Shown here in pieces: positions 38,296-57,407 of a stretch of DNA of 64,000 bases. The translations under genes were made by a program, and so were the position numbers. Location of the stretch: IMG/VR virus record IMGVR_UViG_2788500025_000001, positions 36,163-100,162 of that record, one strand, 5' to 3'. Each line of letters begins with the position of its first letter. Position 1 is the first letter of the stretch. The notes under the pieces were generated by a model. It was not told where the DNA came from and made no database searches. It saw nothing but the letters and a program-made list of their open reading frames with translations. The DNA comes from a virus.

Positions 38296-38604
38296 TTGTC
38301 CCGTCTGCGTGCCACATTGTCTCCCACCGAGACAGACCGAGAGATTCAACTGGCCCTTGACCGAGCGGCCCGTGAGATTGAGTCTGCGTTGCGCGTGGTT
38401 GCGGCTTCACCGCTGGATAGGTATCGCAAGCGCGGGACGGTGGGCGATCTCCAGGGAGCATTGGACCAGGTCACGCGGGTTCGATACCTTGCCCCACCTC
38501 GTCGCGAGCAGGAGTCCTATGAGGACTGGAAGGCTCGACAGGACAAGCGGGATCAAGAGCGCCGTGAGCGCCGTGCGTTGAGGGAGCAGGCCGATGTCGG
38601 ATAA
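38296..38604 (+). CDS. Hypothetical protein
   Basis: Lies between the decoration-like gene and the portal; start uncertain. Confidence 0.55.
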   Translation: MSRLRATLSPTETDREIQLALDRAAREIESALRVVAASPLDRYRKRGTVGDLQGALDQVTRVRYLAPPRREQESYEDWKARQDKRDQERRERRALREQADVG

Positions 38605-40297
38605 GAACGAAGGCAAGCCCGTCAGCAAGGTCCGTAACGGTGACGGGAAGAAGAAGGCGAAGACAGGCAAGCCCCGTAAGATCACGTCCAGCAGTATGCG
38701 GGCGAAGACCGCCAACTTTGGGTCCATCGGCAACGGTGGGTCCTCGGAAGGCATCGGCGGAAACTTCTACTCACCGGAGTTGTCCACCGACTTCCTGGAG
38801 TTGCCTCAGAGCCTCCACGAACAGTGGAACTACTACCGATTCTTCTACCGCACCGAACCATTCGTCGGCCAGGCCATCGATCTCCACACCGAGTTGCCGA
38901 TCAGCAAGGTCCGCATCGGCATGGCGAAGGCGAAGAGCCGCGACCTTGCGGTCAAGGCGACTCGATTCTGCGAGCGTTGGGCGCAGCGCATCAACCTCCT
39001 CGACCGGCTGCTGTGCATCACCCACGAACGCAACCTGATTGGGGTGGTGAACATCTGGTGCGAGGACGCCAACGAGGAGATGCCCCGCGACGTCCGGGAA
39101 GAAGAGGTCCGCATCCTCAAGGAGGACGGCGAGGCCATTGAGGAATGGCAACTCCGTGGGGACGCCGACGAACGCGCCGTGGCATGGCTGAAGAAGAACT
39201 ACAAGGGCTGGACCAGCGTGCGTGTGCTTCCGCCCGAGCAGATCAAGATGCAGTCGTTCAACTTCACGGACGAGCGCATCTTTGAGTTGATCCCGGACAG
39301 CAAGACGAAGGCCATCATCGAGAAGTACCAGGCCGGGGACAAGGACGCGAAGCGCATCGTGGAGTCCATGCCTCCTGCTGTGGTCAAGGCGGTCGTCGAG
39401 GGGTCCAACATCCCGCTCAACACTGACCCCATGGCCGGGTCATACATCTACTGCCTGGTGAACCGGAAGTCCGACTACGACCCGGAGGGTCGCTCCATCC
39501 TGGGTCGGTGCATGAGGATCCTGGTGTACCGGGACAAGTTGCGCCAGGCGCAGACAAGCATCGCCTCCCGGCACATGACACCGATCCGCATCGTCTACGG
39601 GGAAGACCTCGACATCGCGGACGTGGAAGCCTTGCGCGAGCAGGTGGACATGGCGTTGCAGGACCCTGACTACAGCATCATCGCCAACTTCCAGGTCAAC
39701 TGGGACGAGATGGGGGCCGACCAGCGGCTCCTGGACCTAAATGGCGAGTACGACCTCACCGACCGTCAGTTGTACGCTGGCCTCGGGGTCACCGAAGGTC
39801 TGCTCTCGGGCGAGTCCTCCTACAGCGGAGACAGGATCAACCTGGAGGTCATCAACACCCGGTACATGCTGCTGCGCGAGCAGTTGCAGGACTTCGTGGA
39901 GAATCACTTGTTTGAGCCGATGTGCCGCCGGATGGGCTTCATCGAGGAAGACGAGGACGGCGAGGAACGGGTCATCGTGCCTACGCTGTCGTTCACTCGA
40001 CTGGCTCTGCGGGACAACCGAGACACCTTCGACGCCCTGTACAACCTGTACCAGAAGGGCAGCCTGGACGTGGACACCATCCTTGAACTGCTCAACCTCG
40101 ACCCTGTTGCGGTGCGGGAGCGCATCGAGCGTGATCTCTTCACGGTCAATGACCCCACGTTCAACGAGGTCCTTCGGGGCATCTACGGTGACACGGGCCG
40201 GGCGATTGCCGAGAACTCCGATGCAGCCGAGAAGATTGCGAAGGTCCTGGGCCTCAAGTTTGAGAAGCCTGCCGAAGAGGGAGGGGGCCGCTTCTGA
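38594..40297 (+). CDS. Portal protein
   Basis: 567 aa, follows TerL; FFYRTEPFVGQAIDLHTELP, GRSILGR, KLRQAQ..IASRHMTP patterns. Confidence 0.8.
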   Translation: MSDKNEGKPVSKVRNGDGKKKAKTGKPRKITSSSMRAKTANFGSIGNGGSSEGIGGNFYSPELSTDFLELPQSLHEQWNYYRFFYRTEPFVGQAIDLHTELPISKVRIGMAKAKSRDLAVKATRFCERWAQRINLLDRLLCITHERNLIGVVNIWCEDANEEMPRDVREEEVRILKEDGEAIEEWQLRGDADERAVAWLKKNYKGWTSVRVLPPEQIKMQSFNFTDERIFELIPDSKTKAIIEKYQAGDKDAKRIVESMPPAVVKAVVEGSNIPLNTDPMAGSYIYCLVNRKSDYDPEGRSILGRCMRILVYRDKLRQAQTSIASRHMTPIRIVYGEDLDIADVEALREQVDMALQDPDYSIIANFQVNWDEMGADQRLLDLNGEYDLTDRQLYAGLGVTEGLLSGESSYSGDRINLEVINTRYMLLREQLQDFVENHLFEPMCRRMGFIEEDEDGEERVIVPTLSFTRLALRDNRDTFDALYNLYQKGSLDVDTILELLNLDPVAVRERIERDLFTVNDPTFNEVLRGIYGDTGRAIAENSDAAEKIAKVLGLKFEKPAEEGGGRF

Positions 40298-44042: not shown

Positions 44043-44968
44043 CCTTGCTTGCTTCGTCCCCATCACCGCTACGGGTGGCTTCTCTTTTCTCCGACCAGCA
44101 CGAGTTGGCGAGTCGGGTTGCTGCCAGGCACCAGGTTCGGCGGGTGGCTCGCCAGGCCGCTTCGGATCTGGGTTTGGCTACGACAACGAAAACTGCCGCC
44201 GTTGACGGACATAGCCCCTGTCGTGGGATCACGGCTGAGGCATTGTCAGCGTTTGCCGAGGCTTTCTGGCTGCCACAACAGAGTGGGATCAGACGAGCCT
44301 CACTCAGGGGGCTGGCCAAGCGGCTCAAGCAACTCGGCCAGTTGTTCAAGAAGGCCCCCCGCCTCTGGGAGCAGTTCAAACGCCTGGTGGGTGTAGAGTC
44401 CATGACCGACCTTCCTCGACGGCTCAAGGATCTGGCCGCACAAGGGAAGAAGACCCTGGCCCGTTTTCTCGGTAAGGCGTTCAACACCTTCCCTCTCCAG
44501 ATCTTCACCATCAAGGGGGCCAACCTCAACGCTTTCCTCGGTCAACTGACCCAGCAGGTCCCAGGGCTCGACAAGGCCCTGGCTCGTGTCCGGGCGGGGG
44601 CCGACGTGCTGGGTGACTGGCTCAGGAAGCACGCACCCCGCTTGTCGAAGGTGCTGATCGTCGCCACGTTCATCTTCATCTGGATGAACGTGGTCGAGTT
44701 TGAGTGGAACCTCTCGGACCTGGCCGACGCCCTGGTGGGGAACATCGGTTTCGGTGATCTCCTGGCAAGCCTGCCGGGCAGCGCACTCGGATTCCTGATG
44801 AACGGTCTGGGTCTGGGCACCTTTACCTTGCTTCCCGCTGCTCTCGTTGCCCGTGTTGTGTGGTTGATGCACAAGGGCTACGTCGTTTGGGACGGTCGTT
44901 GGTTCGATCTGAACCGGACGGCCCTCCTGCGTGACGGCTACGAGGTGGCTCCTGCTGGGGTTCGGTAG
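44039..44968 (+). CDS. Hypothetical membrane-associated protein with RVA leader
   Basis: LRVASLF..SRVAARH..KTA, then C-terminal hydrophobic helices. Confidence 0.7.
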   Translation: MTLLASSPSPLRVASLFSDQHELASRVAARHQVRRVARQAASDLGLATTTKTAAVDGHSPCRGITAEALSAFAEAFWLPQQSGIRRASLRGLAKRLKQLGQLFKKAPRLWEQFKRLVGVESMTDLPRRLKDLAAQGKKTLARFLGKAFNTFPLQIFTIKGANLNAFLGQLTQQVPGLDKALARVRAGADVLGDWLRKHAPRLSKVLIVATFIFIWMNVVEFEWNLSDLADALVGNIGFGDLLASLPGSALGFLMNGLGLGTFTLLPAALVARVVWLMHKGYVVWDGRWFDLNRTALLRDGYEVAPAGVR

Positions 44969-44977
44969 ACCGCCTAT
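44963..44977 (+). promoter_or_regulatory. Late motif CGGTAG-N5-CTAT
   Basis: Exact match; its TAG is the stop of ORF 44039. Confidence 0.85.
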
Positions 44978-45626: not shown

Positions 45627-47797
45627 GCAACGACAAGAACGCTGAACTCGACATCCTCGCAGAAGCCTTCCTACCCTCCGACCTTTTGACCCCTTCGCTG
45701 GGGTCCAACTACGGCATGGATGGTTACCCCGACATGGAGTACAACATGGGTGTGCTCGATGCCGTGGTGAACCCCGAGTACCATGAAGCCCCCGCTCTCC
45801 CCTCAGGCATTCGCATGACTGCCGCTGCGGAGTTGGATGTTCAGGACATCCTGGATGGGCAACCCCTCGCTGACCTGGATTGGCTCGACCCGAGCCAGAT
45901 GCAGGATGAGGACCGTCTTCCTGAAAACCCTGTGGATCTCGGAATCCCAGAACTCATTGAGGCATGGGGTGTGAACCGCCGTACTGACGGCACACACCTC
46001 ACAGCGCACCATCGAGACCTCACCCGTGCTCGCTACGAGCAGTCCCTTGAGGGGCAGGGTGAATCGAAGCGCGTCAACGCTCGCACCATGGAAAAGGTGA
46101 TCACACACGCTATGCGCCGGTCCATTGAGGGACAGCACATTGACCGTGTGGTGCGCGAAGCCGCCGAGAGTCTGGGAACCGAGTTCAAGCGCATCGTCCC
46201 CCACCTCCGTGCCGTCAAGGCGGATCACGGACTCGCAGGGAACGTCTTCATCCGAGCCTCTGCCTACCCCGGATGGGGTGCAGGCAAAGGCAAGGTACAC
46301 GCGAAGAAGCACGCCAAGCAGGCCCGCTACCTCATTGTCTCCGAGCGGGACATGGAGCAGGCTACCTGGATTCAGAACGGTCGCTGCGCCTACACGGGCA
46401 AGGTGGCTGTGACCCAGGTTCCCTGGAAGCAGGCTCTTGCTTTCTATGCGCCTCGGCTGGAAGCCACAGGCCGGAAGGTTGCATCGGGTGATCCGAAAGC
46501 AGCACTCCGGGCAGCCTTCCTGACCAACCAAGTCCAGCGTGTCGCCCACGGTGAGCATCTCCCTGTCTACAAGGCAGCGGGCGATGATCTCACTGCTGCG
46601 GAGGCACGCCTCGCCGTGGACCAGGCCGACACCACCCGCAAGGTGGTCGAGGTCACGGAAGCCCACGTCCGGCAGCGCCTTGCTGCCTGGCGTCAGGCCC
46701 ACATGCTCGACGACATGCAAGTGCGATCCATCATCGACAGCGCGGCCTCACCCAACGACAAGTTGGCCGCAGCGGTCGAGATGGTCACAGCAACCCGACA
46801 CGGCTCCTTCACCGGGGCCGTGAACCGTGGGGAGGATGCGGCGCAGGAGCGCCAAGAACGCACCCTCGCTGCGAAGCGGGAACGTCGCCAGGCCCACAGC
46901 GAGCGGTTGGCTGCTCTTTCCGAGCAGCGCCGTCAGGAAGACATCAAGGCCCGTGTGGCTACGGTGATCAAGCACATCGAGCGTGGTGCTCGTGGTTCAT
47001 ACCTGCGGAAGATCATCGCGAAGACGATCCCACAGGAGTACGCCGCCACCGCCACCTCGATGCTGCTGCCCACCCTCAAGAAGACGGGCGCTCTCCGCGA
47101 CTCCGTGGCAAAGGTCGCCTCCTACGACGGGCCGACCTTTGAGGCCGCCCAGCCAGAACGCGAGTCGGTCACGCTGACTGCCCACGAGAAGTCTCTCGTC
47201 AAGGCGGCGTCGGCTGGGGACACCAGTGTTGGGGTCATCCGAAACACCCTCCAGACCATCCGCAGGGCGATGTCCGAAGGTATGGCTGGCAAGGACTTGT
47301 CCGGGTTCATCAACCTGCGGTTTACCGAGCGGGTCCTGACTGCCTCCTCAGACCTCATCGCTGAGGTCCGGGGCCGCCATGAAGGGGCTTCCGGTCACCT
47401 GTATGTCGATGCCGAAGCATACGCCTCCCCCACGGGATCAGGCGGTTGCGAAAAGGCGGCGTCGAAGCACCGCGCCAATCAGGTCCCCTCGGTGGCTGCG
47501 ATGCCCCGATGTGGCTCCTGCACAAAGGCGCGTGCTCTGGAAGACGGCACCATGAAGTGTGGCGTCTACAACAAGGCACTCCTGGAGGACACCACAGGAG
47601 CCGAGATCGACCAGATCCGGGCAGCCAACATCAAGGGCGCGGACATGAACGATGCTGAGGTCACGGCTTCGATGTTCGCACCGACCTACGACCCCTCAGA
47701 GTTCAACCTTCACAACGCGAACCTGGAAGGCATCAGCACACCCCTCCCTGAGACCGAGAAGTTGTCTGAGATTCTGTTCGGTGGTTGGTCGCTGTAA
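45623..47797 (+). CDS. Large hypothetical virion protein with Cys-rich C-terminal region
   Basis: ATGA overlap; C..CGSC..CGVY; KAA sites. Confidence 0.7.
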   Translation: MSNDKNAELDILAEAFLPSDLLTPSLGSNYGMDGYPDMEYNMGVLDAVVNPEYHEAPALPSGIRMTAAAELDVQDILDGQPLADLDWLDPSQMQDEDRLPENPVDLGIPELIEAWGVNRRTDGTHLTAHHRDLTRARYEQSLEGQGESKRVNARTMEKVITHAMRRSIEGQHIDRVVREAAESLGTEFKRIVPHLRAVKADHGLAGNVFIRASAYPGWGAGKGKVHAKKHAKQARYLIVSERDMEQATWIQNGRCAYTGKVAVTQVPWKQALAFYAPRLEATGRKVASGDPKAALRAAFLTNQVQRVAHGEHLPVYKAAGDDLTAAEARLAVDQADTTRKVVEVTEAHVRQRLAAWRQAHMLDDMQVRSIIDSAASPNDKLAAAVEMVTATRHGSFTGAVNRGEDAAQERQERTLAAKRERRQAHSERLAALSEQRRQEDIKARVATVIKHIERGARGSYLRKIIAKTIPQEYAATATSMLLPTLKKTGALRDSVAKVASYDGPTFEAAQPERESVTLTAHEKSLVKAASAGDTSVGVIRNTLQTIRRAMSEGMAGKDLSGFINLRFTERVLTASSDLIAEVRGRHEGASGHLYVDAEAYASPTGSGGCEKAASKHRANQVPSVAAMPRCGSCTKARALEDGTMKCGVYNKALLEDTTGAEIDQIRAANIKGADMNDAEVTASMFAPTYDPSEFNLHNANLEGISTPLPETEKLSEILFGGWSL

Positions 47798-47807
47798 GGA
47801 GGGTGCT

Positions 47808-49175
47808 ATGGCTCTTTCCAGGGCATCAGTCCATAGGGTAGCCCGCCGCAAGCAGGCTGAGATGGAAACGGAGGGGGCCAAGGCACTGATGAAGTGGTTG
47901 GCTCGCCACGTCCGTGGGGCGAAGCATATCTATGTCGTGGGCGGCGCGGTTCGGAACTACAAGATCGACCAGCCCGTCAAGGACATCGACATGGTGGTGG
48001 ACTCGCTCAATCTGGGCAAGGACGCCGCCTGGGTAGCGGAACACATCGCTCACAAGATCCCTGCTCAGACGAGGATCGAAGGGCCTGACAACCTCCGGGT
48101 CACCAAAGTCCACATCAAGAGCCCCTGGAGCATCGACGGCTACGAGATGGAGGGTGAAACCCTCGACATCGTTGACGCTCGCACAGAGGAGTACGCCAGG
48201 GACCCGGAGACAGGGGACTACGTCGGCCACAAGCCGATCCGGGTGGACCCCACCACAATGGAAGACGACGTGACTCGACGGGAGTTCACGTTCAACACTC
48301 TGATGTGGCGACTCAGCGAACTCGCCAACGGCCCGGACAAGGCCGAGATCATCGACATCACCGGCTGCGGGGTCAAGGATCTGGAGAACCGTGAGATGCG
48401 GTGCCCAGGGGATCCCGACGAGGTGTTCGCGATTGACCCCACCCGCATCATCCGCATCATCAAGTTTGCCTTCAAGTACGGCTTCAAGTTGCCCCCCGAC
48501 GTGAAGGCGGCAGCGAAGCGCCAGGTGAAGGGGCTCAAGCGCATCCCGACGAAGGCGTTTGAGGCGATCAGGAAGATCGCGTTGGACAACCCGGACTACA
48601 AGAAGGCCATCGGTGTCATGGAAGACCTCGGCGTGATCGACGTCATGGCCGAGATGATGGAGTCCGATAAGCAGTTTCGGTCGTCCATGACCAACTACGC
48701 CGAGAAGCGGGGCATCGCCTACCTGTTTTACATGATGGACAAGGGCCTGCCGGTCGGGGCCTCGTTGAAGTTCCTGGACCGAGCGCAGCAGCAACGGTTT
48801 CGGGAGATCACCGCTCCCATGGACCGTGACGAGGCGTTGGACTTCCGTGCGGCTGTGAGCAATCCCGGCAACGTCTACGACAAGAAGTTCATCCCCACCC
48901 TCGCCGCGACCCTCGGTTTCAGCAAGAAGCAGATGCGGGACCTCATGCAGGTGGTCCTTCCGATTGGCCGAGAGGCCCTGTTGCGTGACCCCAGCCTCAA
49001 GGACAAGCCATCGGCGTTGATGCGCCAGGTCGAGCAGGCCGCAAAGCGAGCCATCCCTACTCGGGTAGCCATGCGCTGGGCTGCGACCGGTAAGGAATCC
49101 AGGCTCCAACGCATCCAGATGAAGCGGGAAGCCTCGGCACGTCTCCGTGCTGCGTGGCGGGGCGAAGATGGCTGA
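47808..49175 (+). CDS. Class II tRNA nucleotidyltransferase / poly(A) polymerase family enzyme
   Basis: YVVGGAVRN..KDIDMV, DARTE, RREFTFNTL, DPTRIIRIIKF. Confidence 0.88.
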   Translation: MALSRASVHRVARRKQAEMETEGAKALMKWLARHVRGAKHIYVVGGAVRNYKIDQPVKDIDMVVDSLNLGKDAAWVAEHIAHKIPAQTRIEGPDNLRVTKVHIKSPWSIDGYEMEGETLDIVDARTEEYARDPETGDYVGHKPIRVDPTTMEDDVTRREFTFNTLMWRLSELANGPDKAEIIDITGCGVKDLENREMRCPGDPDEVFAIDPTRIIRIIKFAFKYGFKLPPDVKAAAKRQVKGLKRIPTKAFEAIRKIALDNPDYKKAIGVMEDLGVIDVMAEMMESDKQFRSSMTNYAEKRGIAYLFYMMDKGLPVGASLKFLDRAQQQRFREITAPMDRDEALDFRAAVSNPGNVYDKKFIPTLAATLGFSKKQMRDLMQVVLPIGREALLRDPSLKDKPSALMRQVEQAAKRAIPTRVAMRWAATGKESRLQRIQMKREASARLRAAWRGEDG

Positions 49176-52100
49176 CCCGAAGCGCATCGCAGCCCTCCAC
49201 AAGCAGGGGGGCATCTACAAGCCTATGTCGGAGATCACTCCCGGCACTCAGGACTTGCTCGACTCGCCGACCCCAGCGTGGCTGGATCGCGACTACCCCT
49301 ACGTCGCACCCCCAGGAGAAGACCACACACTCCAGGAACTCGACTACCTGGTCTCGCTGATCCCCCTACGGGAGAAATGGGCCTCGTTCATCAAGGCAGC
49401 CGACGAGGACATGACCCCTCTGTTCGTCACGCTGTGTTCCGAGTTGGGCGCACCGTGCGATGTGGACGCCCTCAATGAGATGGCCTCCGAAGCGTCCATC
49501 CTGATCACGAAGTTGAAGTGGCTCTACAACAGGCCGCGCCCCTACCAGGTCGCCGCCAAGCATCTACGCCTGTCGGGTCAAGGAGGAGTCTTCAAGAAGG
49601 GGGACTTCTCGGTCATGGGCACCACGAGTGCCCACTCCCCGGCGTACCCGAGCGGCCACACCATTCAGGCTCACCTGATGGCCTCACGGTTGAGCGAGAC
49701 CTCTCCACAGCACCGTAGGGCGTTCATGGATCTCGCCGAGAAGGTGTCCTTCTCCCGAGCCGTTGCGGGCTACCACTGGCCGAGTGATCTCGCGTTCGGA
49801 CAGGACATCTTCCGCCACATCGTCATGCCCCTGATGCCCTCGGCTGTCCGTGTTGCCAAGACCTTCACGGTGAACAAAGGCGACCTGGTTTGGTATGGCA
49901 AGTACAAGAACCAGCGCGGCAAGGTCAAGAACTTCGGCATGAGCGACAAGGGTGATCCCACGGTCACCGTCGAGCAACTACCGAGCCCGTCCGCCCGGAA
50001 GCCGAAGAAGAAGTCTCCGAAGACCATGAACCTGTTCAAGATCCGCCCTCGCAAGAAGGACGAGCACGACGAGGCTGCGGACAAGACTGCTGGTGGATCA
50101 CGGACGCTCTACCACGTCGGCAAGCGCCCAGCGCAGCCTCAACCAAAGCGTGCCGAGTGGCGTCAGCGGGGACAACCGGAGCCTGACTGGGTGCGCCCAT
50201 GGCTCGATGCACCTGTGTCGAAGGGTGTCTTCCTGACCCCCAACCCGTTCCTGGTTGCTCCAAAGCACGGTGTGTTCGGTCACGTCTATGCCTACCAGGT
50301 GCCCAACTGGGTCATCAAGCAGGCCAAGGGCATCAACCGCAAGGATGGGGTCAGCGAGGTCTTGATCCCCGAGCCGTTGTGGGAGCATGTGAAGTTCAAG
50401 GGCAAGTCCATGGACCGAGAGGACTTCCTGAACCAGGTTTACAGGAGCGAGGACGCCGCCTTCACCGGATCACGGGCGAACAAGTACCGCACCAAGTCGG
50501 ACTGGGAGGCGCTTCGCAGCACCAGGCTGGCCGCATCGAAGGCTCTCTCCAAGAAGAAGGTCCCGAAGGCAGACGGGTCGGGCACCACGACCGTCTACGA
50601 GTACGGCCCGCGCCAGGTGGCTCAGAGAAATAAGGAGAAGGCTGTTCGCATCGAAACCCTCCGCAAGAAGATGGGGGACCTGCGCAAGAAGGCACAGAGT
50701 GACCTCACTGCAAGTGATCCTGAGACCAGGCTTGCGGCCCTGGCTGTGTGCTTGATGGACGAGACTTATGCACGGGTAGGAAACGAGAAGTCCGCCGAGG
50801 AGGGCCATCATGGGGTCACCAACTGGTTGGCCGACCATGTGACCCTGGGGGACAAGGCAGCGACCATCCGCTACACCGGCAAGTCCGGGGTCAAGCAGGA
50901 GAAGAAGATCACCAACTCCCGTGTCCTTGCGGCGCTCCGAAAGGCCCTGGAAGGCAAGGGCAAGGGCGACAAGGTGCTTTGTGACGGGGACGAGTGCTCG
51001 GTCCTGGCGAAGGACGTGAACGCCTACCTCAAGCCTTTCAGCATCACCGCGAAGGACATCAGAGGTCTACATGCCAACGAGGAAATGAAACGTCACCTCA
51101 GGGACCAACGCAAGGCTGGCCCGGACCTCCCTCGCTCCAGGAAGGAGAAGGACAAGATATTGAAGGCTGAGTTCAAGGCCGCGCTGGAACTCGCTTCCGA
51201 TGCCGTGGGGCACAAGGACTCCACGCTACGCAGTCAATACCTGGTCCCCAGCATGGAAGAAGCCTACGTCCACGACGGCACCGTGTTGGACCGCCTCGAC
51301 AAGAAGGCCACCCTTTCCGACTCCGAGAAGGAGGAGCGAGAGGCCGAGCGCCTGGTCCGCCAGTCTCCGAAGTTGAAGCCGCCCCGCCGCGACAAGGAGC
51401 GAGGCAGGATCAAAGACACTGATCCCGACACCGACCCAGACGAGAAGCAGGATCGGAAGGACCGGTCGAACAACTACAAGGATGCCGCAGTGGCGAAGGC
51501 CATGCGGAAGTACCTGGCCCTGACCGCAGGTACAGCGAGGTCGAAACGCCGCCGGAAGAGGCAACCATCATCCCGTGAAGTCGCTCGCCGGAAGCAGCAG
51601 TCCGACACTGCGAAAGGGTCGAAGCCTAAGGCCCCACCGAAACTCAAGGAGGCCCCCGCACCGGGCAGCGGGCGTAAGAAGCCGAATGTTGGGGATACCT
51701 GGAAACCCGAGGGTAGTGACAAGTGGTCCGCAAAGAGCAAGGATGGCACTGAGTCAGGCTTTGCTTCCCAGGAGGCCGCGAAGGCGTGGTTGACTGGAGG
51801 GCCTGGGCCTGGTGCGTCCGGTGACACTGCTACTGATTCCTCCCCCGCTGCCGACACGGCCCCGAAGCCTCCTGACAAGAAGCCTTCCGCAAAAGGGCGG
51901 CTGACTCGTAAGCAGAAGCGCGAGATGGTGGACGCCCTCGTTGCAGATCTGGCGAAGGGTGCAGCAGCCGTCCTGAGCAACCTCCCGGAAGACCTCCTCA
52001 AGGAAGTCGGGGACGCCCTCGGTGAACCCGCACGGGCCGTCGTGGACGCCCTGTTGGGTATTGGTACGGAGGCTCTTCAGGAACGGGCGACCTTCGCCAG

Positions 52101-53325
52101 AGCCACGTTGAAGCGTGTACCCACCAGCAAACGCCCGACCGCCGAGCAGGTTGCCGCTGCTGAGACCCTTGTGGAGGAGGATGAGGACGGCCTGGAGTCC
52201 CTACAAGATCAGTTGGATGATCTGGAGGGATCTGCTCCTGACAGTTCCAGTGAGGATTCCAAGGCACACAAGGCCAAGGTCACGGCCCTCAAGGCGAAGA
52301 TCAAGAAGATCGTAGCCGCCGAAAAGACCATCCAGGCCGCTGAGGAGTGGGCCAACGCACCCTCTCCCGCAGAAATCGCAGAGTCTCTCGTGGCTCTCAG
52401 GTCAGTCGAGGTCCGCAACGACCCTCTCTTGCTGGACCTTTCTAACCCCATCACCAATCTCTCCACGGACCCCCTGAACCTGGAGGGTGGTCCTCAAAAG
52501 CAGTTCATGGGCGAGATGGGCGACCTCACGGTGTCAACCGCCTCCGAGTACCGGGCGTTGTCCAAGAAGGACCGTGACTCACACAGGCAAGGGTTGGCCG
52601 ACCACATGCAGGCGTTGGAGGACAAGGGTCAGACTGACACGAAGCAGTACCATCACACCCTCGCTCAGATGCGGGGCCTCCAGATGGCATCCGCACTGGA
52701 AGATGGTGACGATGCCACTGGAGTCTCAGCGGAGTTTCAGACCTTCCTCAAGGCCGCCCAGTCTCAAGGCGCAGAGGTGCTGGACAAGTTCATCAAACTC
52801 AATGTCACCGGAGCCGCCGAAGGGGACGTAGATGCCCAACAGCAGTTTCGGGATGTCCTTCGCGGAGTACCTCCTGCGGAACTCAGGACGATGGTCCCCC
52901 AAGACAACCCGGCAGCCGAAACCCTCGACATGATCACGGGGGCGCACCTCACAGGCAAGAGGAAGGAACTGTGGTTGGGCAGCATGGACGATGAGACCCG
53001 ACAGTTGCTCCAGGAGCACGCCGAGGACATGATCATGGATGAGATCATGTTCACGGACATGGATCTCGTCCGGGCCGGGAAGTCGGTGGGCCAGCAGAAG
53101 AAGAAAAGCGGCAAGCAGAAGAAGCAGACCGCCGAGCGGGCAACGCGGAGAGGCAGGAGGCACAAGTCCGTCCTCGATGAACTACGCAAGAAGTGGGCGA
53201 AGATGCGTAACCAAACCCTCCACTCTCTTTCTTCGGCCCTCTTCGGCACACCCCCATCCACAGCAAAGACCTCTGACCTCAACGCCCTCCAGGCGTATGA
53301 CTTTCACCCCTGGGGGACCCTTTGA
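49168..53325 (+). CDS. Polyprotein: PAP2 phosphatase + SH3/KOW-like + ART-like + topoisomerase IB + unknown C-terminal domain
   Basis: KWLYNRPRP/PSGH/SRAVAGYHWPSD; LYH..GVFLT..EVLIP; RVGNE, GKSGV, KDIR, GH, SQYL. Confidence 0.88.
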   Translation: MADPKRIAALHKQGGIYKPMSEITPGTQDLLDSPTPAWLDRDYPYVAPPGEDHTLQELDYLVSLIPLREKWASFIKAADEDMTPLFVTLCSELGAPCDVDALNEMASEASILITKLKWLYNRPRPYQVAAKHLRLSGQGGVFKKGDFSVMGTTSAHSPAYPSGHTIQAHLMASRLSETSPQHRRAFMDLAEKVSFSRAVAGYHWPSDLAFGQDIFRHIVMPLMPSAVRVAKTFTVNKGDLVWYGKYKNQRGKVKNFGMSDKGDPTVTVEQLPSPSARKPKKKSPKTMNLFKIRPRKKDEHDEAADKTAGGSRTLYHVGKRPAQPQPKRAEWRQRGQPEPDWVRPWLDAPVSKGVFLTPNPFLVAPKHGVFGHVYAYQVPNWVIKQAKGINRKDGVSEVLIPEPLWEHVKFKGKSMDREDFLNQVYRSEDAAFTGSRANKYRTKSDWEALRSTRLAASKALSKKKVPKADGSGTTTVYEYGPRQVAQRNKEKAVRIETLRKKMGDLRKKAQSDLTASDPETRLAALAVCLMDETYARVGNEKSAEEGHHGVTNWLADHVTLGDKAATIRYTGKSGVKQEKKITNSRVLAALRKALEGKGKGDKVLCDGDECSVLAKDVNAYLKPFSITAKDIRGLHANEEMKRHLRDQRKAGPDLPRSRKEKDKILKAEFKAALELASDAVGHKDSTLRSQYLVPSMEEAYVHDGTVLDRLDKKATLSDSEKEEREAERLVRQSPKLKPPRRDKERGRIKDTDPDTDPDEKQDRKDRSNNYKDAAVAKAMRKYLALTAGTARSKRRRKRQPSSREVARRKQQSDTAKGSKPKAPPKLKEAPAPGSGRKKPNVGDTWKPEGSDKWSAKSKDGTESGFASQEAAKAWLTGGPGPGASGDTATDSSPAADTAPKPPDKKPSAKGRLTRKQKREMVDALVADLAKGAAAVLSNLPEDLLKEVGDALGEPARAVVDALLGIGTEALQERATFARATLKRVPTSKRPTAEQVAAAETLVEEDEDGLESLQDQLDDLEGSAPDSSSEDSKAHKAKVTALKAKIKKIVAAEKTIQAAEEWANAPSPAEIAESLVALRSVEVRNDPLLLDLSNPITNLSTDPLNLEGGPQKQFMGEMGDLTVSTASEYRALSKKDRDSHRQGLADHMQALEDKGQTDTKQYHHTLAQMRGLQMASALEDGDDATGVSAEFQTFLKAAQSQGAEVLDKFIKLNVTGAAEGDVDAQQQFRDVLRGVPPAELRTMVPQDNPAAETLDMITGAHLTGKRKELWLGSMDDETRQLLQEHAEDMIMDEIMFTDMDLVRAGKSVGQQKKKSGKQKKQTAERATRRGRRHKSVLDELRKKWAKMRNQTLHSLSSALFGTPPSTAKTSDLNALQAYDFHPWGTL

Positions 53326-53348: not shown

Positions 53349-53363
53349 CGGTAGGGTTTCTAT
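53349..53363 (+). promoter_or_regulatory. Late motif CGGTAG-N5-CTAT
   Basis: Exact match; heads the capsid assembly cluster. Confidence 0.85.
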
Positions 53364-53875: not shown

Positions 53876-54451
53876 GTGCGTCGGTTTGCCGAAAACTACG
53901 TCAACTACCAAGAGCGGGCCACCGAGTTTTCTGTCGGAGACGTCGTGGTGCCGTTTGGCCTGTGGGATTCCCAGAGCGGTCGTGTCACGGCTGTGTGGCC
54001 TGCTATTGGTATGGTGGATGTAGAGTTCCCATCCGGCAACGCACGCTTCCCCGTCGAGGAACTTCAGCGCATGGGCGCTGATGGGCAGGCCGAACCGCCC
54101 AGAACGGACTCCGCTCCGGGCGGGGGTGGGTCTGTTTCTGTGCCGGGTGGTCCGTACCCAGACAAGAAGAAGGCAGCCAATCGTGTGGCGCGGGCGTTCG
54201 TCAAGCAGTCCCTTTACTGGGCGCAGAAGGACCGCCAGTACCGCATGACAGGACCAGAGAGCGTGGAGGGGAAACCCAACTGCCCAAAGTGTCCTGAGAT
54301 CCCTCTCCAGAAGGCGATCTACAAACGCCGCGACGGATCCAGCGAACGGCTCCAGGGCTGCCCTGGTTGCATGTTCCTCATCAAGGACGCGGACATTGTG
54401 AACTTCGGCCCTGTTAGTGCCGAGGAGATTGAGATCGAGGGGCAGGGCTGA
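53876..54451 (+). CDS. SH3-like plus Zn-ribbon head-associated protein
   Basis: VGDVV..GRVTAV..VDVEF; KKAANRVARAF; CPKC..CPGC. Confidence 0.7.
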   Translation: MRRFAENYVNYQERATEFSVGDVVVPFGLWDSQSGRVTAVWPAIGMVDVEFPSGNARFPVEELQRMGADGQAEPPRTDSAPGGGGSVSVPGGPYPDKKKAANRVARAFVKQSLYWAQKDRQYRMTGPESVEGKPNCPKCPEIPLQKAIYKRRDGSSERLQGCPGCMFLIKDADIVNFGPVSAEEIEIEGQG

Positions 54452-55890
54452 TGGCTTTCCTCAAACGTGCCAATGCTATGGTCGTCCATCCCCGCATCTC
54501 TGGACGCGGTTGGGGTGGGATCCGCAAAACGGCTTCGGCAGGGTCCTCCCGGAACCTGACTGACCAGGCGCGGGAAATCCTCGGAGGATCGCTGTCGTCC
54601 GACGACTACCTGGTCACGCACTGCACCATCGTGGCGTCTGTAGACACCGACAAGGCCCCCAACGTGAAGTTGGGCAACGTCAAGGTCGGCACCCAGACGG
54701 TCAACAGACAGTGGGACGACTACCTGATCAAGCCCTCGTCCTCCCAGTTTGTGAACAACAACGGCGACTCGTGGAGCCGCCCGGTGCTGAGGATGGCGTA
54801 CCCGACCTTTATTGGGGCGCACAACTTCCGTGAGCACGTCCAGATCGAGGACCAGTCGAAGGGCCGGATCATCGACGCCTGTGCTCGTGACATTGGTGAC
54901 TCCCTCTATGTGGACATCCTGGTTGCCACGAACAAGAAGCACGCGGCGCTCGTCCAGGACATCCAGTCAGGCAAGATGGCGACCCTCTCCATGGGTTGCA
55001 CAACTGACTTCACGACTTGCTCTAAGTGCGGTCACTTCGCTGTGGACGAGACCCAGTTGTGTGATCACATCAAGTACGCGAAACTCAACACCTTCATGGA
55101 CGATTCCGGCCAGAAGCGTGTGATCGCAGAACTCTGTGGACACCAGTCCTACGACGAGAACCCGGACGCCCCTGGTGGGGTCAGGTTCATCGAGGCTTCC
55201 TGGGTCGCGGTTCCTGCGTTCCCCGGTGCCGTGATGCGGAACATCCTTGATCCCAGCGCGGCGTCCGACGACCAGGTTCGCAAAGTGCTCGCCTCCCCTC
55301 CCCCTCAGTGGTCAGACCACGCGGTCGCAAAGGCCGCGTCCATGTCGGCCCTTGCCTTCGACTTCGGTGGTGGCGGGGATGATGAGGACGACGCCCCTGC
55401 AAAGGACGAGAAGCCATCGCCCCCGTTTCAGGGGATCGAAGATGCGGTGTACGAAGCCCTCAAGGTCCGAGTCAGGGAGCGCCTGGAGCGCGATCTCGCC
55501 CAGAAGGCTGTTGAGGATTCTGAGCCGGAACCTGATGGCACAATGGAGCCGAACGACTCCATCATCAAGGAAGGTCGAGCACACTCGACTTCAGTCAAAG
55601 CACTTGTTCGTGTAGCCTCCTCCGAGGTCGCTCTTGTAGACGGTATTGCTTCCGTTGACGCCGCGCATGGTGTCAAGGTTGCACGCCACCTCTACAGAGT
55701 CGCCCTGGCGGCGGGGGTTCCCACCGAACACCCTTCTCTTGACCGTTACCTGTTTGCCTGTAAGAAGGCGGCGGGACGGGATCTGAGTACTGCCGAAATC
55801 CGGGTTGTTGTCCGGGTCGGCACCCTGTTGGCCCAATGGGCTGACAATAACAACCCCAAACCCCACTATCCTATGAGGAGACTGCCATGA
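54451..55890 (+). CDS. Prohead (capsid maturation) protease, putative
   Basis: Lies before scaffold and MCP; HNFREH, LSMGC..CSKCG, FIEASWVAVPA. Confidence 0.7.
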   Translation: MAFLKRANAMVVHPRISGRGWGGIRKTASAGSSRNLTDQAREILGGSLSSDDYLVTHCTIVASVDTDKAPNVKLGNVKVGTQTVNRQWDDYLIKPSSSQFVNNNGDSWSRPVLRMAYPTFIGAHNFREHVQIEDQSKGRIIDACARDIGDSLYVDILVATNKKHAALVQDIQSGKMATLSMGCTTDFTTCSKCGHFAVDETQLCDHIKYAKLNTFMDDSGQKRVIAELCGHQSYDENPDAPGGVRFIEASWVAVPAFPGAVMRNILDPSAASDDQVRKVLASPPPQWSDHAVAKAASMSALAFDFGGGGDDEDDAPAKDEKPSPPFQGIEDAVYEALKVRVRERLERDLAQKAVEDSEPEPDGTMEPNDSIIKEGRAHSTSVKALVRVASSEVALVDGIASVDAAHGVKVARHLYRVALAAGVPTEHPSLDRYLFACKKAAGRDLSTAEIRVVVRVGTLLAQWADNNNPKPHYPMRRLP

Positions 55891-57407
55891 GCCGTCAACG
55901 AATGACTTGGACAGACGCTGGGGTGTCTCGGCACGCCTCCGAGCACCCTGCAACCCCCGACGAGGGACCCGCTTCCCCCGCCCACAAGGCCCAGCCCGGC
56001 CCCGACGCCTACAAGAGTGGAGACACTTCTTCCTGGGCTGAGGACGTGCATCCTGGCCCCTACGCGAACGGTGAGCATCCTGCCACCCCCGACGAGGGAC
56101 CTGCCAGCCCTGCCTACAAGGCTGCCGCCCTGGAACGCAAGGCTGCAAAGTGCATCCGTCTCGCTACCGCCATGCTCGGTGAGGGTGCTACCGTCGCCGC
56201 CATCGAGAACCAGGCCCTGGAACTGATGGACCTTCCTGACCGTTCGATCAAGGCCAGCCTCTCCCGGCTCGCTGAGGACGCCGACGAAGCCATCGACGAT
56301 GACGACGCCGCCGAAGCCGAGGCCGATCTCGCTGAGGAAGGCAAGAAGAAGGCTTCTGTCTCCGACCGCATCGCTCGTCTGGAGCGCGTGCTCATCAAGT
56401 TGGCTGAATCCGAAGACCCTGAAGGTGACGGCGACGACTCCGAGTCCGAAGACCCCGAGGGTGACGACGACGACGACGGCAGCGAAGACCCCGGCGAAGA
56501 CGAGGACATGAAGAAGTCCGCGTCCGACGACGAGGACGACGAGGACGACGACGAGTCCATGCAGAAGAAGTCGGCCCTTGAGCGCCGCATGGACCGCATC
56601 GAGCGCGTCCTGCATCGCCTGGCTGCTGGCAAGAAGGACGACGGTGAGTCGAAGGGCGACCAGTCCAAGACCCACATCGACTATGCCGACGCGAAGGACG
56701 GCGACAAGGAGACTGGCCACGGCGAGTCTGCTGGCGATCAGTCCAAGTCCCACGAGGACTACGAAGGCAAGAAGGCTTCCGACCACGACGACGACGAGTC
56801 CATGGATGACGAAGAGTCGAAGAAGAAGGCTGGCTGGGAGCCGGGTCACCGTGCTGAAGGTGGCTGGGACCCCGGTCACATGGAGTCCATGAGCGACGAG
56901 GAGTCCATGCTGGAAGAGATGATGCTGGAAGAGATGCTTGCCGAGGAGAGCATGGATCAGAATGATCCCGAGGCTTTCTACGGTGATGATCCTTCCGGTG
57001 ATGGTGTTCCTGAGGTCATCGAGGCCGAAGGCGTCGTTGAGTCCATGATGGACCCCATGGGTCTGGACGACGAGATCGTGGAGGAGGATGACATGATGAT
57101 CCTCGCTTCCCTTTTCGGCAAGGAAGCCGACCTCAAGGATGAGGACAAGAAGGAGAAGGAAGACCACGACAAGGGTGCCATCGCCGACGACAAGGACCAC
57201 ATCGAGAAGTTGGAGAAGGACGAAGACGAGGACGCTGAGGATCTGGAGAAGGAGGAGTCGAAGAAGAAGGCTTCCCTCCGTCCCCAGCCGAAGCGTGCCA
57301 GCAAGGGTGCAAAGACCCTCGGTGGTGTGTCGAAGGAAGCGGCTTCTGAGGTCGGTGATCTCAGCAAGTTGTGGGACTCGGCTCCTGACGTGTCTCGCTT
57401 CTTCTAA
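55887..57407 (+). CDS. Capsid scaffold/core protein
   Basis: Extremely acidic, low complexity; many KKA/KSA/KEA sites; EHPATPDEGPASPA x2, EDP(E/G) x3. Confidence 0.75.
   Translation: MSRQRMTWTDAGVSRHASEHPATPDEGPASPAHKAQPGPDAYKSGDTSSWAEDVHPGPYANGEHPATPDEGPASPAYKAAALERKAAKCIRLATAMLGEGATVAAIENQALELMDLPDRSIKASLSRLAEDADEAIDDDDAAEAEADLAEEGKKKASVSDRIARLERVLIKLAESEDPEGDGDDSESEDPEGDDDDDGSEDPGEDEDMKKSASDDEDDEDDDESMQKKSALERRMDRIERVLHRLAAGKKDDGESKGDQSKTHIDYADAKDGDKETGHGESAGDQSKSHEDYEGKKASDHDDDESMDDEESKKKAGWEPGHRAEGGWDPGHMESMSDEESMLEEMMLEEMLAEESMDQNDPEAFYGDDPSGDGVPEVIEAEGVVESMMDPMGLDDEIVEEDDMMILASLFGKEADLKDEDKKEKEDHDKGAIADDKDHIEKLEKDEDEDAEDLEKEESKKKASLRPQPKRASKGAKTLGGVSKEAASEVGDLSKLWDSAPDVSRFF

What the first reader, a model, noticed from the sequence alone, without database searches (positions are those of the whole stretch)
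47808..49175. CCA-adding/poly(A)-polymerase-family enzyme embedded in the head region with cargo tags at both ends
Seen: a class II nucleotidyltransferase with an intact DxD, but variant motifs (GGAVRN, RREFTFN, IDPTR in place of GGAVRD, RRDFT, EDxxR). It has an N-terminal RVARRKQA leader and a C-terminal RVAMRW. Established: EDxxR templates CCA specificity, and tRNA 3'-end damage is used by some anti-phage and toxin systems. Inference: a virion-delivered tRNA-repair or RNA-tailing counter-defence enzyme, possibly with altered specificity.
Basis: partly seen in the sequence, partly recalled or inferred. Interest (0 to 1): 0.85.

Follow-up and report, generated by a model that had tools for sequence, protein, structure and literature searches.

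The report
Head-operon CCA-type tRNA nucleotidyltransferase of huge phage
A very large uncultured phage encodes an intact CCA-adding-type tRNA end-repair enzyme among its head-assembly genes, flanked by a short peptide motif that marks module borders in related giant multi-enzyme proteins, so it may be carried in the capsid to repair host tRNAs, though this is not shown.

Summary
ORF 47808-49175 (455 aa, strong Shine-Dalgarno) is a full-length class II nucleotidyltransferase. It has the DxD and third carboxylate, and the quoted variants GGAVRN, RREFTFN and IDPTR. The AlphaFold model (pLDDT 92) matches CCA-, A- and CC-adding enzymes and PAP over about 410-430 columns.

The gene lies between the portal and prohead protease genes of a 141-kb fragment of a huge phage related to Bacillus phage G. 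This position is conserved in 10 of 16 related contigs.

In relatives the same enzyme is one module of 1,000-3,400-aa head-operon polyproteins, joined to topoisomerase IB, 2H, HAD_SAK, PAP2 and RNA ligase domains. One relative fuses exactly this gene with the next gene.

The R-V-A motif is real and acts at protein level. It is enriched at NTase module borders (39% and 29% of flanking windows, against 10% elsewhere). The "C-terminal tag" is better read as the header of a module that a 98%-identical relative still has.

Best reading: a tRNA 3'-end repair enzyme made late, and a detached module of a polyvalent protein. Capsid loading and trimming are plausible but unproven, and CCA specificity is untested.

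The scan has noted the same theme on other genomes. I class it as a new variant of a known kind.

The parts
47796..47802 (+). Shine-Dalgarno AAGGAGG, 5-6 nt before the ATG
   Evidence: Read directly. It overlaps the TAA stop of the upstream gene.
47808..49175 (+). Class II (CCA-adding/PAP family) nucleotidyltransferase, 455 aa plus stop
   Evidence: AF2 model pLDDT 92. Foldseek matches full-length CCA-, A- and CC-adding enzymes and PAP.
47835..47858 (+). N-terminal header RVARRKQA (residues 10-17): an R-V-A motif followed by a K-x-A site
   Evidence: Conserved in orthologues down to about 40% identity. R[VIL]A is present in 69 of 175 windows just upstream of the NTase domain, against 168 of 1732 elsewhere in the same proteins.
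47940..47990 (+). Motif A: GGAVRN (45-50) ... K58-D59-I-D61, catalytic carboxylates
   Evidence: G45, G46, R49, N50, K58, D59 and D61 are invariant in 40 homologues. Aligned to the GGxVRD...DxD of E. coli Cca and PcnB.
48165..48167 (+). D120, candidate third catalytic carboxylate (D or E across the family)
   Evidence: Aligned to the acidic residue in PDB homologues. The family consensus is IEIANAR.
48276..48296 (+). Motif B: RREFTFN (157-163)
   Evidence: R157, R158, F160 and N163 are invariant. RRE occurs in 221 of 234 clade members.
48354..48383 (+). Motif C: DITGCGVKDL (183-192)
   Evidence: D183, T185, G186, G188, D191 and L192 are invariant.
48432..48467 (+). Motif D: IDPTRIIRIIKF (209-220). 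D210 and R213 are the nucleotide-templating residues; I209 replaces the canonical Glu.
   Evidence: D210, R213, R216, K219 and F220 are invariant. Position 209 varies: D184, E25, Q16, K9, L6, N3, I2.
49062..49079 (+). RVAMRW (419-424): junction or header motif after the NTase tail domain
   Evidence: In P0002 (98% identical), P0010 and others, a 190-340-aa extra module follows exactly here and the same C-terminal tail comes after it.
49101..49172 (+). Conserved basic C-terminal tail RLQRIQMKREASARLRAAWRGEDG (432-455), containing K-R-E-A|S
   Evidence: Conserved in orthologues and kept at the extreme C-terminus of the longer fused forms. Predicted helix with low pLDDT.
49168..53325 (+). Downstream PAP2 - SH3-like - topoisomerase IB - helical-domain polyprotein. 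Its start overlaps the NTase stop by 8 nt (ATGGCTGA).
   Evidence: Pfam PAP2 7e-11 and Topoisom_I 4e-20. Overlap read directly. P0123 (1704 aa) is colinear with NTase plus this protein.
44963..44977 (+). CGGTAG-N5-CTAT promoter-like motif at the head of the 4-gene unit 45006-53325 that holds the NTase
   Evidence: 13 exact + strand copies (17 matches with up to 1 mismatch; about 0.9 expected at that setting). The next copy is at 53349.
38594..40297 (+). Portal protein (context)
   Evidence: phrog_16240 E=5e-33. 36% identical to the Tunturi_5 portal and 27% to phage G gp14.
54451..55890 (+). Prohead (head maturation) protease (context)
   Evidence: phrog_18299 E=9e-13.
55887..57407 (+). Acidic scaffold-like protein with repeated KKxA[S/G] sites (context)
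   Evidence: 6 [KR][KRSQTE]A[SG] sites against 0.5 expected.
58300..59172 (+). Major capsid protein (context)
   Evidence: 41% identical to phage G gp27, 50% to the Tunturi_5 major head protein, 86% to LR745208. Weak Pfam Phage_capsid hit.

Best explanation
The gene encodes a catalytically intact class II tRNA nucleotidyltransferase of the CCA-adding/repair type.

It is the free-standing form of a module that related huge phages carry inside giant 'polyvalent' proteins encoded in the head operon, joined to RNA end-healing domains and topoisomerase IB. It is transcribed with the head genes from a late-type promoter and is translationally coupled to the PAP2-topoisomerase IB polyprotein that follows it.

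Most likely function: it restores missing 3'-terminal C, C and A residues on tRNAs whose ends have been damaged, for example by tRNA-targeting host immunity. A neighbouring or fused phosphoesterase would first clear a 3'-phosphate or 2',3'-cyclic phosphate.

The R-V-A-x-R-[Y/W] motif with nearby K/R-x-A marks module borders. The most probable meaning is a site read by the head-assembly machinery, either prohead protease trimming or docking. In that case the enzyme would be loaded into the capsid and enter the next host with the DNA.

Shown: the enzyme family, intact active-site residues, the fold, the conserved head-operon position, the fusion partners, and the motif enrichment.

Inferred: the tRNA substrate and CCA specificity (about 0.6), late expression (about 0.7), capsid packaging and processing (about 0.45). 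The overall confidence of 0.5 is for the statement as a whole; that it is an active class II nucleotidyltransferase module of a head-operon polyvalent system I hold at about 0.9.
For: - Family and fold: PF01743 and PHROG tRNA NTase. PDB sequence hits to CCA-adding and A-adding enzymes and PAP. AF2 pLDDT 92 and Foldseek matches over about 410-430 columns to full-length CCA-adding enzymes (6qy6, 3h38, 9kma), E about 1e-12.
- Active site under selection: G45, G46, R49, K58, D59, D61, R157, R158, N163, D183, D210, R213 and R216 are invariant in 40 homologues.
- The E. coli PcnB signature GRRF is absent, as it is in E. coli Cca.
- Head-module position: portal ... NTase ... topo IB ... protease ... 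MCP is conserved in 10 of 16 IMG/VR loci at 40-64% identity and in two further contigs.
- Module nature: more than 200 representative clusters at E<1e-30, many of 1,000-3,400 aa. P0123 equals the window's two genes fused.
- Repair partners: fusions to 2H, HAD_SAK_1, PAP2, InPase and RNA ligase. ART-PolyVal and C39 peptidase also occur in the set.
- Not needed for maturation in a relative: in a complete 436-kb relative the only PF01743 domain is the head-operon one, while 62 of 64 tRNA genes examined already encode CCA.
- Motif: border enrichment, a protein-level signal, and repeated KKxA[S/G] in the scaffold-like protein.
- Late motif shared with structural genes.
- Concept: phages package effectors encoded beside virion genes (PMC5512222). 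CCA-tail cleavage is now a known immune strategy with no known viral counter (PMC12851939).
Against: - No virion proteomics, expression data or enzymology exist for this uncultured phage.
- The window gene itself is single-domain.
- The motif could be only a linker left by module shuffling.
- The contig is 31% complete, so the phage may carry CCA-less tRNAs that need ordinary maturation. None are seen in the 141 kb.
- A late-made cytoplasmic enzyme could serve heavy late translation without being packaged.
- I209 replaces the canonical Glu of EDxxR, and its effect is unknown.
- Sequence and fold do not separate CCA-adding, A-adding and poly(A) activities. All NCBIfam equivalog scores are far below their cut-offs.
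- PAP2 domains are not established RNA 3'-phosphatases.
Confidence: 0.5

Rival explanations
1. It is an ordinary cytoplasmic phage CCA-adding enzyme. It matures or maintains phage-encoded (and host) tRNAs during infection and is not packaged. Its place in the head operon only gives it late, high expression, and the RVA motifs are inert linker remnants of domain shuffling.
For: - CCA-adding enzymes are common in jumbo phages and are read as tRNA maturation or repair factors (PMC7824862, PMC5852040, PMC6102473).
- Relatives carry 9-67 tRNA genes. In one (G004) 7 of 21 examined lack CCA, and in G003 none of 9 has it.
- The own contig is only 31% complete.
Against: - The position between portal and protease is kept across 40-64% identity even where other genes are rearranged.
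- The domain sits inside 2,500-3,400-aa head-operon polyproteins with topo IB.
- In the complete 436-kb relative nearly all tRNAs encode CCA.
- In G003, whose tRNAs all lack CCA, the NTase is a tandem double enzyme outside the head module, a different arrangement.
- The motif is enriched 3-4-fold at module borders.
Confidence: 0.3
2. It is an RNA-tailing enzyme with a substrate other than tRNA 3' ends, such as poly(A) or another homopolymer. It might mark host transcripts for decay, or act on nucleic-acid ends together with the neighbouring topoisomerase IB.
For: - Sequence and fold are equidistant from PAP and the CCA enzymes: TIGR01942 pcnB 71.6 bits against PRK13299 CCA 71 bits, and PAP structures are among the Foldseek hits.
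- The canonical Glu of motif D is lost here (I209). In the clade it is mostly Asp, with non-acidic residues in 36 of 245 members.
- The constant partnership with topo IB (10 of 39 multidomain homologues) is not explained by tRNA repair.
Against: - The G[RK][RK]F signature present in E. coli PcnB is absent.
- A full body and tail domain like that of tRNA-binding enzymes is present.
- D210 and R213 are invariant.
- Fusion partners are RNA end-healing and sealing domains (2H, HAD_SAK_1, RNA ligase), typical of repair rather than decay.
Confidence: 0.12
3. It is a catalytically dead or purely structural internal head protein derived from a nucleotidyltransferase.
For: Deviations from canonical motifs (GGAVRN, RREFTFN, IDPTR).
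Against: All metal-binding carboxylates and the motif B, C and D core residues are invariant across 40 to over 240 homologues. The variant residues are themselves conserved clade hallmarks, which points to purifying selection on an active site.
Confidence: 0.03

Closest known systems
Bacterial and eukaryotic class II CCA-adding enzymes (e.g. Planococcus halocryophilus 6QY6, Thermotoga maritima 3H38/5HC9, Bacillus stearothermophilus 1MIV, E. coli Cca)
   Same: Head-neck-body-tail architecture. Motifs A-D with the DxD, an RRD-like motif B, and the D..R template of motif D. About 400-residue core. E. coli Cca also couples the transferase to phosphohydrolase activities for 3'-end repair. The phage clade achieves the same combination by fusion or adjacency to 2H, HAD or PAP2 domains.
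   Different: Only 14-20% identity in the structural alignments. Clade-specific GGxVRN and RRE. Insertions after the DxD and between motifs B and C. Glu of EDxxR replaced (Ile here). Extra N-terminal header and C-terminal tail. Encoded in a phage head operon.
CCA-adding enzymes of jumbo phages (Iyer et al. 2021, PMC7824862; XacN1 ORF446, Atu_ph07 gp18, phage G gp522)
   Same: Phage-borne class II tRNA nucleotidyltransferases, interpreted as tRNA maturation or repair factors in phages with many tRNA genes.
   Different: Those genes lie among metabolic and tRNA genes; in phage G the gene is about 370 kb from the head genes. They are at most about 33% identical to this one. They are not described as head-operon modules, polyprotein parts or tag-bearing.
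Polyvalent proteins of phages and conjugative elements (Iyer, Burroughs, Anand, de Souza, Aravind 2017, PMC5512222)
   Same: Many unrelated enzymatic modules (2H, InPase, GNAT, ART-PolyVal, peptidases) strung in one protein, encoded next to virion genes and predicted to be packaged and injected. Solo versions of modules also occur.
   Different: That survey's Pol-beta NTases are minimal protein-modifying versions. The text I searched does not describe class II CCA-type enzymes or topoisomerase IB as modules. It also reports 2H domains never associated with RNA ligases, whereas P0130 joins RNA ligase, NTase, HAD_SAK and 2H. The window gene is a single module.
Capsid targeting sequences and prohead-protease processing of internal or ejection proteins (T4 IPs and Alt with gp21; SPN3US ejection proteins with gp245; PMC9958956, PMC5694885, PMC10052503)
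   Same: Short terminal peptides shared by unrelated cargo proteins, a cleavage motif also repeated in the scaffold, and genes clustered with head genes.
   Different: Different sequences: R-V-A-x-R-[Y/W] and K/R-x-A here, against L/I-x-E or S/A/G-x-E. The motif is also internal, at every module border. No experimental evidence of targeting or cleavage exists here.

Membership tests
Class II nucleotidyltransferase (PF01743, CCA-adding/PAP family) | Motif A: GGxVRD followed by the DxD metal ligands | tested here: met
   GGAVRN 45-50 and D59-I-D61. Aligned to E. coli Cca and PcnB and PDB homologues. Asn replaces the final Asp in 218 of 241 clade members.
Class II nucleotidyltransferase (PF01743, CCA-adding/PAP family) | Third catalytic carboxylate on the neighbouring strand | tested here: met
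   D120 aligns with the Asp or Glu of PDB homologues. It is acidic (mostly Glu) in the family consensus.
Class II nucleotidyltransferase (PF01743, CCA-adding/PAP family) | Motif B RRDxxxN (ribose recognition) and motif C DxxxGxxDL | tested here: met
   RREFTFN 157-163, with a conservative D to E change that is the clade norm. DITGCGVKDL 183-192, with its core invariant.
Class II nucleotidyltransferase (PF01743, CCA-adding/PAP family) | Motif D EDxxRxxR amino-acid template | tested here: inconclusive
   D210, R213 and R216 are invariant, but Glu is replaced by Ile here (2 of 245 in the clade; Asp in 184). The consequence for specificity is unknown.
Class II nucleotidyltransferase (PF01743, CCA-adding/PAP family) | Head-neck-body-tail fold | tested here: met
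   AF2 pLDDT 92 and pTM 0.82. Foldseek aligns about 410-430 columns to full-length enzymes, probability 1.00.
CCA-adding (tRNA-specific) subtype, as opposed to poly(A) polymerase | Template-independent addition of exactly C, C, A to tRNA 3' ends | not testable with these tools
   Needs enzymology. All NCBIfam equivalog models score far below their cut-offs.
CCA-adding (tRNA-specific) subtype, as opposed to poly(A) polymerase | Absence of the bacterial PAP signature (G[RK][RK]F region) and presence of the loop between motifs A and B | tested here: met
   GRRF is found in E. coli PcnB at residue 103, and not in E. coli Cca or P0001. The loop ARTEEY...GHKP..V is present and is longer than in E. 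coli Cca. The diagnostic value of both features is recalled from the literature, not tested here.
Polyvalent proteins (Iyer et al. 2017) | Two to fifteen unrelated effector domains in one polypeptide | tested here: not met
   The window protein has a single enzymatic domain. Its orthologues meet the criterion and P0123 fuses it with the next gene. It is therefore a solo module of such a system, not itself a polyvalent protein.
Polyvalent proteins (Iyer et al. 2017) | Encoded among virion or late genes of a phage | tested here: met
   It lies between portal and prohead protease, conserved in relatives.
Polyvalent proteins (Iyer et al. 2017) | Packaged in the virion and delivered with the DNA | not testable with these tools
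   No proteomics exist for this uncultured clade.
T4-type capsid-targeted, protease-trimmed head cargo | Short shared terminal peptide on unrelated proteins | tested here: met
   RVA.R occurs 9 times against 1.2 expected. The motif is at the N-termini of orthologues and is enriched at module borders. Two further leader families were seen in 10 and 6 proteins.
T4-type capsid-targeted, protease-trimmed head cargo | Cleavage by the prohead protease at a motif also found in the scaffold | tested here: inconclusive
   K/R-x-A sites lie between tag and domain at both ends of the NTase. The scaffold-like protein has 6 KKxA[S/G]-type sites against 0.5 expected. No cleavage data exist.

The most novel reading that the evidence does not exclude
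A clade of huge phages uses a portable peptide code, an R-V-A-x-R-[Y/W] header plus K/R-x-A cut sites. The code loads interchangeable enzyme modules into the capsid and releases them there. This phage pre-loads a tRNA 3'-end repair kit (CCA-type transferase plus PAP2 phosphatase, alongside topoisomerase IB). The kit enters the cell with the DNA and would blunt immunity that cuts tRNA CCA tails, such as Cas12a3, or otherwise damages tRNA 3' ends, before any phage gene is expressed.
Probability: 0.3. Interest if true: 0.8.

Novelty: new variant of a known kind. Interest (0 to 1): 0.55.

Why it matters
Cutting the universal CCA tail of tRNAs was recently shown to be a bacterial immune strategy for which "yet unknown" viral counter-measures were predicted (PMC12851939). 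A CCA-type repair enzyme is built into the head operon of a widespread clade of 300-480-kb phages. It is often fused to end-healing and ligase domains, so it is a concrete candidate for such a counter-measure.

It would also be the first class II tRNA nucleotidyltransferase proposed as capsid cargo. The recurring border motif offers a testable handle on how giant phages choose and process what they package.

If the enzyme is not packaged, it is simply one more phage CCA-adding enzyme in an unusual genomic position.

Tried and rejected
- DNA-level origin of the RVA motif. Both NTase copies read GGGTAGCC, which resembles the late motif CGGTAG. Rejected: across 37 instances the Val codon is GTG 15, GTT 9, GTC 8, GTA 5, and the Arg and Ala codons vary too.
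- Longer ORF from ATG 47652 (507 aa). Rejected: it overlaps the upstream gene, has no ribosome-binding site, gives a junk-like peptide, and orthologues start at the 47808 equivalent.
- tRNA genes in the contig as a simple explanation. Aragorn finds none in 141 kb, but the contig is 31% complete, so this is uninformative on its own.
- My first CCA count in relatives' tRNAs was confounded by acceptor-stem CC plus discriminator A. I redid it with stem pairing.
- Sub-typing by NCBIfam equivalogs: all are far below cut-off and PAP and CCA models tie.
- Sigma-70 promoter and terminator scans around the gene: chance level.
- Literature search for a virion-detected phage tRNA nucleotidyltransferase: none found. 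One search failed on term length and one returned nothing.
- I ran no phylogeny against characterised CC-, A-, CCA-adding and PAP enzymes, because only E. coli Cca and PcnB were available as anchors.
- I sent no complex-prediction job, because I do not claim a specific binding partner for the tags.
Full report
**What is there.** The window is part of a 141,282-bp IMG/VR virus contig that CheckV rates 31% complete, so it is a fragment of a very large phage. ORF 47808-49175 on the + strand encodes 455 residues. The start is secure. AAGGAGG lies 6 nt upstream, directly after the TAA of the preceding gene. The longer frame from 47652 overlaps that gene and reads as junk. Orthologues begin at the equivalent Met. 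The stop overlaps by 8 nt (ATGGCTGA) the start of the next gene, a 1,385-residue PAP2 / SH3-like / topoisomerase IB protein.

**Enzyme identity.**
- Pfam PolyA_pol (PF01743) matches residues 41-198 at E=4e-14. PHROGs call it a tRNA nucleotidyltransferase at E=2e-22.
- Sequence search of the PDB finds CCA-adding, A-adding and poly(A) enzymes at E 1e-11 to 1e-8.
- An AlphaFold2 model built on 40 homologues has mean pLDDT 92 and pTM 0.82.
- Foldseek aligns about 410-430 columns of the model to full-length class II enzymes: psychrophilic, Thermotoga, Arabidopsis and human CCA-adding enzymes, Aquifex A-adding and CC-adding enzymes, and E. coli PAP. The whole head-neck-body-tail architecture is therefore present.

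GGAVRN is residues 45-50, D59-I-D61 is intact, RREFTFN is 157-163 and IDPTR is 209-213. They need re-weighting, however. In 40 homologues G45, G46, R49, N50, K58, D59, D61, R157, R158, N163, D183, G186, G188, D191, D210, R213 and R216 are invariant. Across about 240 clade members, Asn follows GGxVR in 218 of 241 and motif B reads RRE in 221 of 234. These are clade hallmarks under selection, not signs of decay.

Only the residue before D210 is free: D 184, E 25, Q 16, K 9, L 6, N 3, I 2. The two residues that template the incoming base in canonical enzymes are fixed. The Ile is a rare local variant and gives no positive evidence of altered specificity.

The G[RK][RK]F stretch that I find in E. 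coli PcnB is absent from E. coli Cca and from this protein. NCBIfam models for PcnB and for CCA enzymes tie at about 71 bits, far below their cut-offs. Sequence therefore cannot settle CCA-, A- or poly(A)-adding activity.

**Genomic setting.** Gene order is as follows:

| Coordinates | Product |
|---|---|
| 26486-31651 | giant tail-sheath-like protein |
| 35723-37678 | large terminase |
| 38594-40297 | portal |
| next seven genes | include the NTase and the topo IB polyprotein |
| two small genes | conserved, unassigned |
| 54451-55890 | prohead protease |
| 55887-57407 | very acidic scaffold-like protein |
| about 58300-59172 | major capsid protein |

The capsid protein is 41% identical to gp27 of Bacillus phage G, 50% to the major head protein of Tunturiibacter phage Tunturi_5, and 86% to the 485-kb metagenomic phage LR745208. 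The portal agrees with these relationships.

The promoter-like motif CGGTAG-N5-CTAT occurs 13 times exactly on the + strand between 14 and 54 kb, always before structural-region genes. With up to one mismatch there are 17 matches against 0.94 expected. Copies at 44963 and 53349 bracket a four-gene unit, 45006-53325, that contains the NTase. Sigma-70-like sites are at chance level. The gene is thus most likely co-expressed with head genes. 'Late' is an inference from the company it keeps.

**Conservation of the setting.** Sixteen IMG/VR loci encode relatives of 39-64% identity. In ten of them the NTase lies in the same portal ... protease ... MCP block. This holds even where other genes have moved, as in L008 and L017, where the portal directly precedes it. 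The contigs reach 297, 381 and 436 kb. In LR745208 the block keeps the topoisomerase IB but has no NTase. The enzyme is therefore an accessory module in a conserved cargo-like interval.

**The enzyme is a module.**
- An exhaustive HMMER search finds 207 representative clusters at E<1e-30, very many of 1,000-3,400 residues with the NTase embedded.
- Among 39 multidomain homologues, 10 also carry topoisomerase IB, 10 a 2H phosphoesterase, and 4 the HAD domain of 'Swiss Army Knife' RNA repair proteins. Others carry DUF5661, inorganic pyrophosphatase, GNAT, C39 peptidases, ART-PolyVal, SOD or inteins.
- P0130 (2,792 aa) strings RNA ligase, NTase, HAD_SAK, 2H and topo IB. It sits in the same head synteny on a 266-kb contig.
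- P0123 (1,704 aa) is colinear with the window's NTase (residues 1-439) followed by its PAP2-topo IB protein (residues 20-1384). It too lies between the 721-aa upstream gene and the protease-MCP set.

The window gene is therefore the split-off N-terminal module of what is one protein elsewhere. These partners are end-healing phosphoesterases, a PPi remover and a ligase. They are what one expects around an RNA 3'-end repair transferase, and they mirror the phosphohydrolase domain fused to E. coli Cca.

**tRNA maturation versus repair.**
- No tRNA gene occurs in the 141 kb, but the genome is incomplete.
- Relatives encode 0, 9, 29 and 67 tRNAs.
- In the complete 436-kb relative (direct terminal repeats), the only PF01743 domain is the head-operon one, inside a 2,495-residue frame. 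There, 62 of 64 tRNA genes examined already encode CCA after the discriminator. De novo CCA synthesis on phage tRNAs is therefore not its main job in that phage.
- The 376-kb relative whose nine tRNAs all lack CCA has instead a tandem double NTase in one 948-residue frame, outside the head module.

The sample is tiny but points towards repair for the head-operon form.

**The tags.**
- RVA occurs 37 times in the contig's 141 predicted proteins against 18.8 +/- 4.5 in shuffles. RVA.R occurs 9 times against 1.2.
- Codons differ among instances, so selection is on the peptide.
- Orthologues down to about 40% identity keep [RK][VI]A-x-[RK] a few residues from the N-terminus. Many keep R[VL]A-x-x-W after the tail domain.
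- In 241 homologues the motif R[VIL]A is present in 69 of 175 45-residue windows just upstream of the NTase domain and in 51 of 173 just downstream. This compares with 168 of 1,732 windows elsewhere in the same proteins and 65 of 1,913 inside the domain. In fusions it precedes 2H, PAP2 and other modules as well. It is a module-border motif.

P0002, 98% identical, has about 190 extra residues inserted exactly between RVAMRW and the conserved tail RLQRIQMKREASARLRAAWRG. P0010 has about 340. RVAMRW is therefore the header of a module that is absent here, and the true C-terminal element is the basic tail.

K/R-x-A sites lie between each motif and the enzyme core: RRKQA|E at residue 17, AAKRA|I at 415, and KREA|S in the tail. 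The scaffold-like protein has six KKxA[S/G]-type sites against 0.5 expected. This is the pattern of a scaffold cut to pieces by a prohead protease. R-V-A itself fits K/R-x-A.

The AlphaFold model places residues 8-34 in one helix continuous with the first helix of the head domain. The C-terminal 419-452 forms two low-confidence helices. These data fit processing and/or docking signals, but prove neither.

**Comparison with what is known.**
- CCA-adding enzymes in jumbo phages are known and are read as repair or maturation factors (PMC7824862, PMC5852040, PMC6102473). None of the papers I searched reports one in virions.
- Polyvalent proteins encoded next to virion genes and predicted to be injected are known (PMC5512222). 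The text I searched describes minimal Pol-beta NTases, not class II CCA-type enzymes. It does not describe topo IB as a module. It states that its 2H domains never accompany RNA ligases.
- T4 and SPN3US show that head cargo can carry shared targeting peptides and be trimmed by the prohead protease (PMC9958956, PMC5694885, PMC10052503).
- Cas12a3 shows that cutting tRNA CCA tails is a real immune mechanism, with viral counters still unknown (PMC12851939).

**Earlier notes of this scan.** Notes on other genomes describe the same theme: 2H-NTase-topo IB head polyproteins, and tags bordered by K/R-x-A. They are unchecked AI notes. I treat them as leads only, and the tests above were made here.

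**Verdict.** The enzyme family, its intact active site, the conserved head-operon position, its modular nature and its RNA-repair partners are all shown. tRNA/CCA specificity, late timing, capsid loading and cleavage are inferred. It is a new variant of known kinds: a phage CCA-adding enzyme, and a polyvalent-protein module.

Noticed in passing
window 49168-53325; L022 (LR745208) 12295-13206: Topoisomerase IB is the constant element of the portal-protease interval in this phage group. It is present even in a 485-kb relative that lacks the NTase and PAP2 modules, which suggests a head-associated topo IB.
   Followed up: partly
window 55887-57407: The very acidic 506-aa scaffold-like protein carries six KKxA[S/G]-type sites (0.5 expected) and two DRIxRLERVL-type repeats. 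It is a candidate substrate map for the prohead protease.
   Followed up: partly
window 21325, 24189, 32269, 40343 and contig genes outside the window (e.g. window coordinates -26409, -24849, -24111, 88681, 89980): Ten proteins begin with an LRxILAxEGL leader. Six carry a DRxxLIRLAxxLPxGxxER leader: 22027, 23723, 31730, and outside the window -29979 and -15445, the last at both ends. The parts downstream of the leaders are unrelated.
   Followed up: no
L011 10001-12445 (G003, 376-kb complete relative): Two NTase domains (39% and 34% identical to the query) lie in tandem in one 948-residue open frame outside the head module. All nine tRNA genes of this genome lack an encoded CCA. It may be a fused CC-adding and A-adding pair.
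   Followed up: partly
window 14176-53363: CGGTAG-N5-CTAT occurs in 13 exact + strand copies before structural-region genes (17 matches with up to 1 mismatch; 0.94 expected at that setting). It is a candidate late promoter of a non-sigma-70 type.
   Followed up: partly
P0002 and P0010 (homologues of window 47808-49175): Near-identical NTases differ by whole modules of 190-340 aa inserted between RVAMRW and the conserved C-terminal tail. Module gain and loss happens precisely at the border motif.
   Followed up: partly
homologue set A2: Two NTase-containing polyproteins carry inteins (Intein_splicing plus LAGLIDADG), one carries an Fe/Mn superoxide dismutase, and one an ART-PolyVal domain.
   Followed up: no
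window 53876-54451 and 49860-49990; P0048 and P0125 N-termini: A small SH3/KOW-like unit (GD..V.YGKYKN..G.V) recurs as a mobile module next to RVA motifs. It also occurs in a conserved 191-aa head-operon protein that has a Cys4 ribbon.
   Followed up: no
window 26486-31651: A 1,721-residue protein matches tail sheath only in its last about 360 residues (phrog_2839, E=3e-22). This is an unusually large sheath-like protein.
   Followed up: no
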